Positions 4,592 through 7,500 of a stretch of 41,868 nt of DNA are shown here, in pieces. Under the pieces are notes generated by a model. It saw only the letters and a list, made by a program, of their open reading frames with translations, was not told where the DNA came from and ran no database searches. This stretch comes from a virus. Lineage: Duplodnaviria > Heunggongvirae > Uroviricota > Caudoviricetes. The translations under genes and the position numbers were made by a program. The DNA is taken from positions 1 to 41,868 of the IMG/VR virus record IMGVR_UViG_2974481312_000001. One strand, given 5' to 3'. Positions within the stretch are counted from its first letter, which is position 1, and each line of letters opens with the position of its first letter.

Positions 4592-7500
4592 ATGAATCTG
4601 CTTTATCTCGATACTGAAACATTCTCAGAAGCCGATTTGAAAAAAGTCGGTTCCTATGCCTACGCCGAACATCCGACTACTGAAATTGTTATCTGCACTT
4701 ATGCTTTCGATGAAGGCCCTGTGCAAGTATGGGACGCCACCGACGGCAGCGATATGCCGCGTGATTTGCGTCGGGCGATGCTGAAGCTGCAAAAACCAGA
4801 CAGCAATCTCAAACTGGTAGGCCAAAACTTCCTTATGTTCGACCGACCAGTTATTAAGCATTGCTGGGGATTCGAACTCCTGGTAGAAAACATTATAGAC
4901 ACTATGATAGTCGCGTTCCGACATGCCCTCCCAGGTTCACTGGCTGCGCTGTGTGAGGTTTTAAACATTGACGCAAGCATGGCTAAGGATAAACGCGGTA
5001 AGGCGCTTATACAGCGATTCAGTAAGCCTACGCCTAAGAACTATAAGATTCGACGCTACACCGCCGATACCCACCCAAAAGAGTGGGCAGAATTTATCGC
5101 ATACGCAAAAAGCGACATTACGTCCATGCGTGAAGTGTATAAGAAAATGCCTAAGTGGGGTAATTCTGAGTTCGAAGACCGCGTGCTTAGCTTAGACCAG
5201 GTTATTAATGACCGTGGATTTAAGGTTGATGTTGCCCTTGCTGAAGCCGCGATTGAAGCTGTCACGCGTCACAAGGAAGAGTTACAGGAAGAAGCCCAAC
5301 GTAAATACGGCGGTTCACTGACAGGCAAATACTTCCTGCCTATTTTACAGGAACTAGCGCCGGCGCACCGCATACATAATGCGCAGAAGTCAACGCTAAA
5401 CGACCTGCTGGCGGATGAGGATTTACCAGACGATGCGCGCACCATCATTGAGATGCGTCTGGGGGCCGCGTCTACCGCATCGACGAAATACGCGCCGTTG
5501 CTGTTAGGCCGTTCTTCAGATGACCGCCGCCGTGGTTGCCTGCAATACGGAGGAGCGAAGCGAACATTGCGGTGGGCCGGGAAAGGTTTTCAGCCACAGA
5601 ACCTGGCGCGCGGGTATTATCATGACGATGAACTGGATAGGGGTATTGCCGCGTTACTTAAAGGCCGTGCACACCGCCGTTTTGATGTGGCCAAGCTAAC
5701 AGCGTCTACCGTCCGAAGCTGCATTATTCCGGAAGCCGGGTGTAAATTTGTTGTTGCGGACTACTCTAACGTCGAAGGCCGTGGGCTTGCGTGGCTGGCT
5801 GGTGAAGAAACCGCGCTTGATACGTTCCGCGCCGGGCTGGATATTTACTGCGTAACCGCGGGTAAGATGTTTGGCATGGACCCCGACGATATTAAGAAAG
5901 AACGTAAAGACTTGCGCCAGATTGGTAAAGCGTGCCTTCACCGTCATACCCAAGTTTTGACCGATGGCGGATTTAAGGATATTATGGCGGTTACATCAAC
6001 AGATAAAGTATGGAGCGGTGAAAAATGGGTGAATACAAAAGGCGCGCACCTTATGGGGTGGAAACCGGTAATAAATGTGGACGGGGTGCTAATGACCGAA
6101 GACCACAAAATCTTGGCGCATTCCTGGAAGCAGGCAAAGCAACTCGCTTCAAACAGATATATGATGGGCCTCGCCCTGGAGAGAGGTATGGACGCTTGGT
6201 TATCCTGCGCGAGTTACCAAAACGACAAGGCCAAAGACAACTACTCGTCCAATGTGATTGCGGAGAGATGCCGGGGCGGGTCTATTATGACAACGTTAGA
6301 GCTGGTAAAACCACTCAATGCAACCGCTGCGCCCTTGAAGCAACAAAAAAATATCGTAAACAGTATTTCTGCTACGAAGACGCAATGCCGGATGATGCGC
6401 ACAGAACGCGATTACTCAACCGGCTGTCCGCGGCGATCACGCGAACAACAAGCCCCAGGGATAAGGGTTATAAAAACTATGGGGCAAGAGGCATCACGGT
6501 ATTCGACCAGTGGAGGACTGATAAAAGGTCTTTTCTTAGATATGTTCAAACTCTGGAAGGCTGGGATGACCCGAACCTCGAAATGGATAGAATCGACACA
6601 GACGGTAACTACGAACCTGGAAACATTCGGTTTGTCAGCCGTTCTGAAAACTGCCGCAACAGACGGCAGATACCCGAGCTTCAACGAAAGTATGATGCAG
6701 CCGTTGCCCGCATTGCTGAACTTGAGCGGGAAATTAACCTACTGCGAGCCGGTGTACGACCTGATTGATGTGGAAGACGGCAACCGTTTTCTTATAGCCT
6801 CAGACTCTGGCTTTCTTGTGGCGCATAACTGCGAACTGGGCCTCGGCTACGAGGGAGGTGTCGGAGCGTTCGTTACGTTTGCTAAAAACCTGGGTCTTGA
6901 CCTTATTGAGATGGCAAAAACAATGGACGGGACTTTCCCCGACCACATCTGGGCTGCTACCGCACGTGGGTATGAGTGGGCGCGTATTCAGGAAGCCAAG
7001 AGACCACCGCATCCCGGTGAAAAGGATGATCGACCCTCGTATATTCTGGACAAGAAAGTATGGCGCACATGCGACGCGATCAAGCGTATGTGGCGTGAGT
7101 CACACCCTGAAACAGTAGCGTTCTGGCGCGACCTTAAAGACGGAATTTTAGCCGCTGTTCGTAATCCTGGTCGTGAATTTTGGGCTGGGGCACACTTGCG
7201 CCGGAATGGTGAAAGGGCTATCCGCATATGGCGTACCGTAGAATTTGATTCGTCGGGCAGGAAGGTTCCTGGCTGGTGGTTGTGTATGGAGCTGCCGTCA
7301 GGCCGTATCCTATCGTATCCGGGAATCGGCGTTAGTGTGACAAAGGAAACAGACGAAGACGGGCGGATAAACACCAATGTAAGAATTAAGTACCAGGGTG
7401 AGAACCAGTTAACACGGCAATGGACCACCCTGTACACACACGGCGGAAAGGCTTGTGAAAACATTGTTCAGGCGTTGTGCCGTGACTTATTGGCCTATGC

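What the first reader, a model, noticed from the sequence alone, without database searches (positions are those of the whole stretch)
5933..6829. Intein in DNA polymerase motif B with its HNH endonuclease encoded in a different frame
The polymerase ORF is continuous for 1032 codons but contains a 299-codon insert with intein splice-junction signatures (Cys1 in CLHRHTQVLTDGG, block B TEDHKIL, C-terminal FLVAHN followed by Cys) that splits motif B (RQIGKA | CELGLGYEGG). The central part of the insert looks like off-frame sequence in the polymerase frame, whereas the -1 frame (6025..6768) encodes a clean HNH endonuclease with its own GGAG RBS and ATG. So either a free-standing endonuclease gene is overprinted inside an intein whose linker is kept stop-free only by selection on the polymerase, or the endonuclease domain is joined to the Hint domains by two compensating frameshifts (biological or assembly error). 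I am not aware of a described precedent for either arrangement, but I cannot search to confirm that.
Basis: partly seen in the sequence, partly recalled or inferred. Interest (0 to 1): 0.85.

Follow-up and report, generated by a model that had tools for sequence, protein, structure and literature searches.

The report
Polymerase intein with out-of-frame homing endonuclease
A Salmonella phage DNA polymerase gene carries a self-splicing protein insert (an intein), and the insert's DNA-cutting "homing" enzyme is a separate gene read in a different frame of the same DNA; this layout was first described in a 2025 preprint and turns out to be common in phage polymerases.

Summary
The window is a Jerseyvirus genome, 100% identical to Salmonella phages f2SE, f3SE and fSE4S over the 1,501 bases compared. 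The polymerase ORF 4592..7690 has a precise 299-codon insert (5933..6829) in motif B. An intein-less relative reads RQIGKA|CELGLG without a break.

The ends of the insert are a class-1 intein splicing domain. The 184 codons between them have no predicted fold in the polymerase frame. The -1 frame (6025..6768) encodes a 247-aa HNH-like endonuclease with its own GGAG and ATG.

Assembly error is excluded. The 897-nt insert is gap-free in 9 of 11 relatives. Nine more distant polymerases tested (HNH 32-53% identical) show the same nesting.

Substitutions follow the HNH frame. The polymerase frame is only kept free of stops: 0 observed against 3-12 expected, while free-standing relatives have 15-19.

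Intein and extein identities disagree (99% against 85-90%), which indicates horizontal spread.

It does have a precedent. Gosselin, Arsenault and Gogarten (bioRxiv 2025) reported actinophage inteins with out-of-frame endonucleases. This is a new, large member family of that kind. Splicing, translation of the HNH ORF and cleavage are untested.

The parts
4592..5932 (+). N-extein of the family-A DNA polymerase (3'-5' exonuclease domain and the polymerase domain up to motif B, ending ...RQIGKA)
   Evidence: Pfam DNA_pol_A E=6e-16 and phrog_17. Variation is concentrated at codon position 3.
5933..6829 (+). Whole intein in the polymerase frame: 299 codons, Cys1 ... His-Asn, followed by Cys+1
   Evidence: Precise insertion relative to S102. 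GenBank mat_peptide 'intein' in vB_SenS-Ent2. Length is conserved without gaps in 9 of 11 relatives.
5933..6160 (+). Hint N-terminal splicing region (intein residues 1-76; block A CLHRHTQVLTDGG, block B TEDH)
   Evidence: AF2 pLDDT by block falls from 96 to 70 over residues 1-70, all beta. The mini-intein profile hits only inteins in PDB: NEQ068 at 4e-5 and Mtu RecA at 5e-3. The top 24 Foldseek hits are all inteins.
6161..6712 (+). Polymerase-frame 'linker' (intein residues 77-260): stop-free read-through of the HNH gene with no fold of its own
   Evidence: AF2 pLDDT below 50 for residues 77-260. The most variable position is polymerase codon position 2. Linker amino-acid identity is 59% where nucleotide identity is 83%. 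There are 0 stops against about 5 expected.
6713..6829 (+). Hint C-terminal splicing region (blocks F and G: VYDLIDVEDGNRFLIA...GFLVAHN)
   Evidence: AF2 pLDDT 81-89, beta strands. Conserved in distant relatives.
6830..7690 (+). C-extein of the polymerase, starting Cys-Glu-Leu-Gly-Leu-Gly-Tyr (rest of motif B, then motif C)
   Evidence: phrog_7766 and phrog_10285 DNA polymerase. Contiguous with the N-extein in S102.
6011..6027 (+). Shine-Dalgarno-like GGAG plus the ATG of the nested gene, made from the Hint codons W-S-G-E-K-W (TGG AGC GGT GAA AAA TGG)
   Evidence: The ATG is conserved in 12 of 12 aligned sequences; GGAG or GGAA precedes it. Of the 120 top homologues, 103 start with MG or MP, which fits ATGs built from the W-V or V-C codons of Hint. 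The +1-offset clade has AAGGAG plus ATG.
6025..6768 (+). Nested gene in the -1 frame: 247-aa HNH-like homing endonuclease candidate. It has a disordered 45-aa leader, a beta-barrel with a CxC..CxxC zinc ribbon, a helical domain, a beta-beta-alpha motif (D188 R189 ... N200 ... N209 N212) and a C-terminal long helix
5957..5985 (+). Sigma-70-like TTGACC-17-TATTAT, about 40 nt upstream of the HNH ATG; a possible internal promoter (a lead only)
   Evidence: 10 of 12 consensus match. Conserved in most relatives, but it overlaps conserved Hint codons.

Best explanation
This is a composite mobile element made of two genes on one stretch of DNA.

Gene 1 is a class-1 intein in motif B (the O-helix) of the phage's family-A DNA polymerase. 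The polymerase is translated straight through all 299 intein codons. Intein residues 1-76 and 261-299 fold together as the Hint splicing domain, and the 184 residues between them are an unstructured loop. The intein then excises itself and ligates RQIGKA to CELGLG, restoring the polymerase. This last step is inferred.

Gene 2 lies in the -1 frame inside the intein and encodes a free-standing 247-aa HNH-like endonuclease. It is translated from its own ribosome-binding site and ATG, both built out of conserved Hint codons. Its structured part begins about where the Hint-N fold ends.

The endonuclease is inferred to cut intein-less polymerase alleles during co-infection. Repair from the intein-bearing copy would then spread intein and endonuclease together. 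This parallels a group I intron that carries its own homing-endonuclease gene.

Selection acts on amino acids in the HNH frame. In the polymerase frame it only forbids stop codons and indels.
For: Anatomy:
- The insertion is precise relative to the intein-less S102 polymerase.
- The canonical residues C1, T-x-x-H, H-N and C+1 are present.
- A profile of the splicing regions matches only inteins in PDB.
- The AF2 model of the polymerase-frame insert has confident ends and a 184-residue centre with pLDDT below 50. Its top 24 fold matches are all inteins.

The HNH frame is a real gene:
- It matches phrog_374 at E=6.9e-47.
- Its AF2 model has pLDDT 84 with residues 50-247 well folded.
- 25 columns are invariant across 75 homologues.
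- In the core 6178-6680, variable sites by HNH codon position 1/2/3 number 16/5/34 in the close set and 37/16/76 in the full set. In the exteins, variation falls on polymerase codon position 3.

The polymerase frame is kept open by selection:
- There are 0 stops against 3.4-8.6 expected in nine loci of the -1 clade. P(0) is at most 6e-3 in each.
- There are 0 stops against 10-12 expected in the three loci of the +1 clade.
- Free-standing relatives have 15-19 stops in the corresponding frame.

It is not an assembly error:
- 159 phage records carry the insert.
- The alignment is gap-free in 9 of 11 relatives, including phages only about 79% identical at the nucleotide level.
- Ten further loci (nine distinct polymerases) show the same nesting: L015, L016, L017, L019, L020, L023 and L025-L028.

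Independent translation:
- ATG and SD are conserved.
- 103 of 120 homologues start MG or MP, and the most common leader lengths are 50-57 aa.

Mobility:
- The intein is 99% identical where the exteins are 85-90%, and 93% where the exteins are 97-99.7%.
- 456 phage records have an uninterrupted site.

Precedent for the architecture: bioRxiv 10.1101/2025.01.02.630785.
Against: - No experiment here shows splicing, translation of the HNH ORF or DNA cleavage.
- Pfam has no HNH match.
- Judged against my recalled HNH_3 / I-HmuI motif, the position of the usual general-base His is an invariant Arg (D188-R189). Catalysis would therefore need another residue, or the protein only binds DNA.
- 17 of 75 homologues hit the CapR homology domain. 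As I recall it, this is a DNA-binding module also found in a domesticated endonuclease.
- The SD is weaker (GGAA) in some relatives.
- The intein/extein discordance could in principle come from general recombination rather than endonuclease-driven homing.
Confidence: 0.85

Rival explanations
1. Sequencing or assembly artefact: two compensating indels hide an ordinary in-frame HNH intein.
For: SS3e (NC_006940.2) has extra bases after 5965 and 6237 that fuse Hint-N to the HNH in one ORF. Metagenome protein P0206 shows the same fusion.
Against: The alignment is gap-free in 9 of 11 relatives, and 159 phage records carry the insert. Ten further loci (nine distinct polymerases) keep the out-of-frame layout. 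SS3e and contig L029 have polymerases broken into three frames, so they are the erroneous records. The polymerase frame is statistically depleted of stops, which an in-frame design would not need.
Confidence: 0.01
2. Programmed ribosomal frameshifting (-1, then +1) joins the Hint-N, HNH and Hint-C regions into a canonical three-part intein.
For: The frame offset is -1 in this clade. An A AAA AAT heptamer exists at 6346.
Against: That heptamer lies inside the HNH core, about 107 codons into the ORF, and is not conserved in L002. Nothing slippery lies at the frame borders. The polymerase frame stays open for 184 codons under selection, which would be unnecessary if ribosomes left it. A sister clade uses the opposite offset (+1) with a strong AAGGAG-ATG start. 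Two sequential shifts would sharply reduce the yield of an essential enzyme.
Confidence: 0.03
3. The HNH ORF is a silent relic. The intein is now a vertically inherited mini-intein with a long junk loop, and the ORF is not expressed.
For: One relative (L016) has an in-frame stop in its HNH while its polymerase frame remains open. HNH-less mini-inteins exist at the same site (P0138). There is no expression data.
Against: Variation is biased toward HNH codon position 3. HNH amino-acid identity is 82% where the linker is 59%. The ORF is intact, with conserved start context and invariant motifs, down to about 45% identity. The intein is far more uniform than its exteins.
Confidence: 0.06
4. The nested protein is not a nuclease but a DNA-binding regulator or other phage-beneficial factor (a domesticated homing endonuclease), and the intein spreads by ordinary recombination.
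For: By comparison with my recalled HNH_3 / I-HmuI motif, the canonical general-base His is replaced by an invariant Arg. 17 of 75 homologues hit the CapR homology domain. Fold matches to nucleases are weak.
Against: The same D-R...N...N motif is found in the free-standing relatives L018 and L021. The A1 profile recovers a very large superfamily: 65,529 proteins at E of 1e-10 or better. PHROGs annotates its families as HNH endonucleases. The metal-ligand positions, Asp and Asn by my reading of the motif, are invariant. Presence/absence and sequence discordance fit homing.
Confidence: 0.08
5. The insert is not protein-spliced. It is either a group I or II intron carrying an HNH ORF, or a tolerated non-splicing insertion like the ShiLan domain.
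For: HNH genes are typical of phage group I introns. PMC11855218 describes a stop-free, non-splicing insertion with a hidden HNH.
Against: No Rfam intron match at E of 1 or better. Conserved Hint blocks and catalytic residues are present, with an intein-only profile and intein-only fold matches. The insertion breaks the catalytic O-helix of an essential polymerase in viable lytic phages.
Confidence: 0.02

Closest known systems
[quoted passage not shown]
   Same: A class-1 intein whose central region is unstructured in the extein frame. A second ORF on the same strand encodes an endonuclease ('frame 3', the same offset as here). Free-standing relatives of the endonuclease exist. There are signs of continuing horizontal transfer.
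   Different: The hosts are different (Salmonella, E. coli and Sodalis phages plus many metagenome phages). The host gene is different: family-A polymerase motif B, against the preprint's listed host types of DNA polymerase (III alpha elsewhere in the paper), terminase, minor capsid and thymidylate synthase. The endonuclease family is different. [quoted passage not shown] Both -1 and +1 offset clades exist here.
ShiLan domain and Pacc40 insertion: hidden out-of-frame HNH inside a stop-free insertion in phage DNA methylases (PMC11855218)
   Same: The insertion is stop-free in the host frame and disordered when translated in that frame, and it carries an HNH in another frame. It has a homing-like distribution.
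   Different: Those insertions have no detectable splicing domain and are thought to stay in the protein. Here the insertion is flanked by a complete Hint domain and sits in an essential catalytic motif.
Canonical HNH inteins with the endonuclease domain in frame
   Same: A Hint domain interrupted by an HNH-type nuclease at the usual endonuclease insertion point.
   Different: Here the nuclease is never part of the intein polypeptide. No reliable in-frame version was found among the 150 best profile hits; the one apparent fusion comes from an error-ridden contig.
Fractured genes: split inteins with a free-standing endonuclease gene between the halves (Dassa et al. 2009; known to me and cited)
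   Same: A free-standing homing endonuclease gene sits between the N and C splicing regions.
   Different: In fractured genes the host ORF is broken and splicing is in trans. Here the host ORF is continuous and kept stop-free, so splicing is in cis.
Group I introns with nested free-standing HNH homing endonuclease genes (established knowledge)
   Same: A two-component selfish element: a splicing part that limits damage to the host gene plus a separately translated endonuclease that provides mobility.
   Different: Splicing here is at the protein level, so the endonuclease gene must also be readable without stops in the host frame.

Membership tests
Class-1 intein (Hint domain) | Nucleophile Cys, Ser or Thr at position 1 | tested here: met
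   Cys at 5933-5935. It is invariant in all six aligned relatives.
Class-1 intein (Hint domain) | Block B T-x-x-H | tested here: met
   T55-E-D-H58. T, D and H are invariant in alignment A2.
Class-1 intein (Hint domain) | C-terminal His-Asn followed by Cys, Ser or Thr at +1 | tested here: met
   VAHN|C at 6818-6832. Relatives have HN|C or SN|C.
Class-1 intein (Hint domain) | Hint fold | tested here: met
   AF2 ends are confident and all beta. The top 24 Foldseek PDB hits are all inteins, probability up to 0.99 but E about 0.06. The profile hits NEQ068 at 4e-5 and the Mtu RecA intein at 5e-3. Pfam found no Hint model.
Class-1 intein (Hint domain) | Precise in-frame insertion in a conserved host motif, with intein-less homologues | tested here: met
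   S102 reads RQIGKA|CELGLG contiguously, and 1032 minus 299 equals 733 aa. 456 records have an uninterrupted site.
Class-1 intein (Hint domain) | Protein splicing activity | not testable with these tools
   Inferred only, from viable lytic phages whose essential polymerase motif is interrupted.
Intein with the homing endonuclease in a separate reading frame (bioRxiv 10.1101/2025.01.02.630785) | Intein central region without a fold in the extein frame | tested here: met
   pLDDT below 50 for residues 77-260.
Intein with the homing endonuclease in a separate reading frame (bioRxiv 10.1101/2025.01.02.630785) | Second same-strand ORF that encodes a recognisable endonuclease | tested here: met
   ORF 6025..6768 matches phrog_374 at 6.9e-47. 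Its AF2 model has pLDDT 84.
Intein with the homing endonuclease in a separate reading frame (bioRxiv 10.1101/2025.01.02.630785) | Endonuclease is of the endonuclease VII-like type (IPR004211) | tested here: inconclusive
   Only a weak match to phrog_1035 'endonuclease VII' at E=2.2e-5. No Pfam Endonuclease_7 hit. Probably a different nuclease family.
HNH / beta-beta-alpha-Me endonuclease | Significant match to a curated HNH model | tested here: inconclusive
   PHROGs families annotated as HNH match strongly: 374, 3377 and 2081. Pfam and NCBIfam give nothing.
HNH / beta-beta-alpha-Me endonuclease | Beta-beta-alpha-metal fold | tested here: inconclusive
HNH / beta-beta-alpha-Me endonuclease | Catalytic His (general base) at the end of beta 1 | tested here: not met
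   Judged against my recalled HNH_3 / I-HmuI motif (a lead, not a test), this position is Arg189. It is invariant in 75 sequences. D188, N200, N209 and N212 are invariant.
HNH / beta-beta-alpha-Me endonuclease | Site-specific DNA cleavage | not testable with these tools

The most novel reading that the evidence does not exclude
The out-of-frame layout may be a long-lived, selected design rather than a brief accident after an endonuclease gene invaded an intein. All nine distinct diverged polymerases sampled show it, and the N-termini of 103 of the 120 top homologues suggest that hundreds of phage family-A polymerases do. They carry a motif-B intein whose endonuclease is permanently encoded in another frame. 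The endonuclease gene's ribosome-binding site and start codon are built from conserved Hint codons (W-D/S-G-x-x-W-V). Two clades use opposite frame offsets. That would make this family a natural 'intein plus free-standing endonuclease' composite, the stage that 'splicing first, endonuclease later' models of intein origin predict. It would also be a tractable enterobacterial system in which to test those models.
Probability: 0.6. Interest if true: 0.65.

Novelty: new member of a known kind. Interest (0 to 1): 0.55.

Why it matters
- It gives an easily cultured system (Salmonella and E. coli phages) for a type of intein so far reported only computationally, in actinophages.
- One can test directly whether an intein and a separately translated endonuclease act as one mobile unit.
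- It shows how much arbitrary sequence a Hint domain tolerates in its loop.
- It shows how two reading frames co-evolve when one needs amino acids and the other only needs to avoid stops.
- It matters for annotation. GenBank records call this intein 'splicing domains only' or split the polymerase into pieces. Gene callers on metagenomes report the 247-aa ORF without noticing that it sits inside a polymerase intein.

Tried and rejected
- **Pfam and NCBIfam** on the insert and on the HNH ORF found no Hint or HNH models.
- **Single-sequence PDB searches** found nothing. A profile of the HNH family matched only the zinc ribbon of COX5B.
- **Foldseek** of the HNH model against PDB found nothing significant.
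- **A database search with the polymerase-frame insert** returned only four truncated gene calls.
- **Rfam** found no intron.
- **A slippery-heptamer scan** found nothing at the frame borders.
- **RNA folding** around the HNH start gave z = -0.42, so there is no special structure.
- **A co-conversion tract or cleavage-resistant flank.** The 100 nt upstream of the site are only 79% identical between the window and intein-less S102. However, the two flank alleles (ERKDL and NFKEI) both occur with near-identical inteins, so I rejected this as evidence.
- **In-frame ancestors.** I looked among the 150 best of 115,752 profile hits. The only Hint-HNH fusion (P0206) comes from a contig with several frame breaks.
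- **P0056** could not be located on a contig.
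Full report
**What the window is.** The 1,501 bases around the finding are 100% identical to Salmonella phages f2SE, f3SE and fSE4S. They are 92-97% identical to most of the other listed Jerseyvirus records that carry the insert, and 378 phage records match in all. The gene is a family-A DNA polymerase (Pfam DNA_pol_A, phrog_17).

- ORF 4592..7690 is open for 1032 codons.
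- The insert 5933..6829 begins with Cys and ends His-Asn, followed by Cys.
- Intein-less phage S102 encodes a 733-aa polymerase in which RQIGKA and CELGLGYEGG are contiguous. The insertion is therefore exactly 299 codons.
- ORF 6025..6768 (247 aa) lies in the -1 (+2) frame, with GGAG nine bases before its ATG.

**The ends of the insert are an intein.**
- I aligned the N-terminal and C-terminal parts of the insert from six diverged polymerases. C1, the T..DH of block B, the YD of block F and the terminal Asn are invariant.
- A profile of that alignment hits only inteins in PDB. The best are the Nanoarchaeum polymerase split intein NEQ068 (E=4e-5) and the Mtu RecA mini-intein (5e-3).
- An AlphaFold2 model of the 299 residues in the polymerase frame is confident at both ends. 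pLDDT by block falls from 96 to 70 over residues 1-70 and is 81-89 for 271-299.
- It is below 50 for residues 77-260.
- Its 24 best Foldseek matches in PDB are all inteins, with probability up to 0.99 but short alignments and E about 0.06.
- Pfam itself found no Hint model.
- GenBank already marks this segment in vB_SenS-Ent2 as 'intein, encoding splicing domains', with no endonuclease noted.

**The -1 frame is a real gene.**
- It matches PHROG families annotated as HNH endonuclease: phrog_374 at 6.9e-47, phrog_3377 and phrog_2081.
- More than 300 proteins of about 236-250 aa in the public protein collection are homologous.
- Across 75 of them, C77, C79, C99 and C102 (a zinc ribbon) and D188, R189, N200, N209 and N212 are invariant.
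- The AF2 model has mean pLDDT 84. Residues 1-45, which overlap Hint-N, are disordered, and residues 50-247 are well folded.
- The nuclease assignment is weaker than the name suggests:
  - Pfam and NCBIfam give nothing.
  - Foldseek finds nothing.
  - By comparison with my recalled HNH_3 / I-HmuI motif, the usual general-base His is an invariant Arg.

**Which frame is under selection.** I aligned the window with 11 relatives and counted variable sites by codon position.
- In the exteins and the Hint-only parts, variation sits at polymerase codon position 3. For example, 72 of 100 such sites vary in the N-extein.
- In the core 6178-6680, the most variable position is polymerase position 2, which is HNH position 3.
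- In HNH-frame terms the counts for positions 1/2/3 are 16/5/34 for the close set and 37/16/76 for the full set.
- The central DNA therefore evolves as an HNH gene, and the polymerase-frame amino acids are not conserved.
- Against phage Pubbukkers the linker is 59% identical where the intein nucleotides are 83% identical. The HNH of near-identical phage SO-1 is 82% identical.

**The polymerase frame is kept open on purpose.** I permuted synonymous codons within each HNH ORF.
- The expected number of stops in the polymerase frame is 3.4-8.6 in the nine -1-clade loci, with P(0 stops) of 6e-3 or less in each. It is 10-12 in the three +1-clade loci. The observed number is 0 in all twelve loci tested.
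- The third frame carries 13-27 stops.
- Free-standing relatives (L018, L021) carry 15-19 stops in the corresponding frame.

**It is not an assembly error or a one-off.**
- The 897-nt insert aligns without a gap in 9 of 11 relatives. These include the Dhillonvirus Pubbukkers and Sodalis phage SO-1, whose exteins are only 65-70% identical.
- The exceptions have single extra bases and broken polymerases, so they are probably sequence errors. They are SS3e (after 5965 and 6237) and L010 (after 6936).
- Every more distant homologue with enough flanking DNA to test was again nested inside a family-A polymerase, at the same motif-B site, with the polymerase frame open. That is ten loci from nine distinct polymerases, at 32-53% HNH identity.
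- Seven of them use the same -1 offset: L015, L016, L023 and L025-L028. Three use the +1 offset: L017, L019 and L020.
- More remote homologues (L018, L021) are free-standing genes.
- Mini-inteins without the HNH exist at the same site (P0138).

**How the HNH is probably translated.**
- The ATG at 6025 comes from the Hint codons AAA-TGG (K-W), and the GGAG from TGG-AGC (W-S). The ATG is conserved in all 12 aligned sequences.
- Of the 120 best homologues, 55 start with MG and 48 with MP. Those are the dipeptides produced when the start is built on the conserved W-V or V-C codons of Hint.
- The leader before the first conserved HNH motif is most often 50-57 residues.
- In the +1 clade the start is preceded by a canonical AAGGAG.
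- Nothing slippery lies at the frame borders, and there is no Rfam intron.
- Together with the open polymerase frame and the two opposite offsets, this argues for independent initiation rather than frameshifting.

**Mobility.**
- The intein is 99% identical between the window and L004, L005 and L007, whose flanking exteins are 85-90% identical.
- It is only 93% identical to L011, whose exteins are 97-99.7% identical.
- 159 phage records carry the insert, and 456 have an uninterrupted site.
- This is the pattern expected of an element that moves between polymerase alleles.
- I found no clean co-conversion tract.

**Comparison with what is known.**
Gosselin, Arsenault and Gogarten (bioRxiv 10.1101/2025.01.02.630785) describe actinophage inteins whose endonuclease VII-like homing endonuclease is 'in frame 3 relative to the intein'. 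They predict such inteins are under-reported.
- The same laboratory described a stop-free, non-splicing insertion with a hidden HNH in phage methylases (PMC11855218).
- I found no paper that describes the arrangement in Jerseyvirus or in family-A polymerases.
- The present case differs in four ways:
  - host phage group and host gene;
  - endonuclease family;
  - real dual coding with the splicing blocks, including start signals built from Hint codons;
  - a large diverged family with two frame offsets.
- The profile of the HNH family finds 478 representative clusters at E of 1e-30 or better, inside a superfamily of 65,529 at 1e-10 or better.

**What is shown and what is inferred.**
- Shown: the anatomy, the selection pattern in each frame, stop avoidance, conservation of the arrangement, and intein/extein discordance.
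- Inferred: protein splicing, internal translation of the HNH ORF, nuclease activity and its target, and endonuclease-driven homing.

**Verdict.** This is a real and interesting feature, correctly spotted. It is best filed as a new and large member family of a kind of intein first reported in 2025.

Noticed in passing
window 5957-5985: Sigma-70-like promoter TTGACC-17-TATTAT lies inside intein block A codons, about 40 nt upstream of the HNH ATG. It is conserved in most relatives, but it cannot be separated from Hint coding constraint.
   Followed up: partly
L001/L014 (SS3e NC_006940.2), L010, L029: Public records with single-base indels split the polymerase into several ORFs and create an apparent Hint-N-HNH fusion. 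These are SS3e orf42 and metagenome protein P0206. They are probably sequencing errors, but they are annotated as genes.
   Followed up: yes
window 8284-9708: The SNF2-type helicase here has no intein. The orthologue in vB_SenS-Ent2 is annotated with a LAGLIDADG intein, so intein content varies between close Jerseyviruses.
   Followed up: no
L016 2923-3690: The nested HNH has an in-frame stop (…KQW*EDR…) while the polymerase frame through it is still open. This looks like a decaying endonuclease inside a still-functional intein.
   Followed up: partly
proteins P0165-P0167, P0182, P0195: Longer family members (395-604 aa) carry two to five tandem copies of the barrel plus zinc-ribbon module before one catalytic domain. 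Three of the five begin with the same 'MG' leader. Whether they are also nested in inteins was not checked.
   Followed up: no
protein P0207: The N-terminal part of an SNF2 helicase runs in frame straight into an HNH of this family with no Hint sequence. This could be a ShiLan-like direct insertion or a gene interrupted by a free-standing endonuclease.
   Followed up: no
homologues listed: Most homologous ORFs sit on metagenome contigs of about 0.9-1.1 kb, roughly the intein length. That is what one expects if assemblies break at the borders of a mobile element shared by divergent genomes.
   Followed up: no
window 5833-5932 compared with L003 (S102): The 100 nt just upstream of the insertion site are only 79% identical to the intein-less allele, while the 400 nt downstream are 99-100% identical. 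Two flank alleles (ERKDL and NFKEI) exist, and both occur with near-identical inteins.
   Followed up: partly
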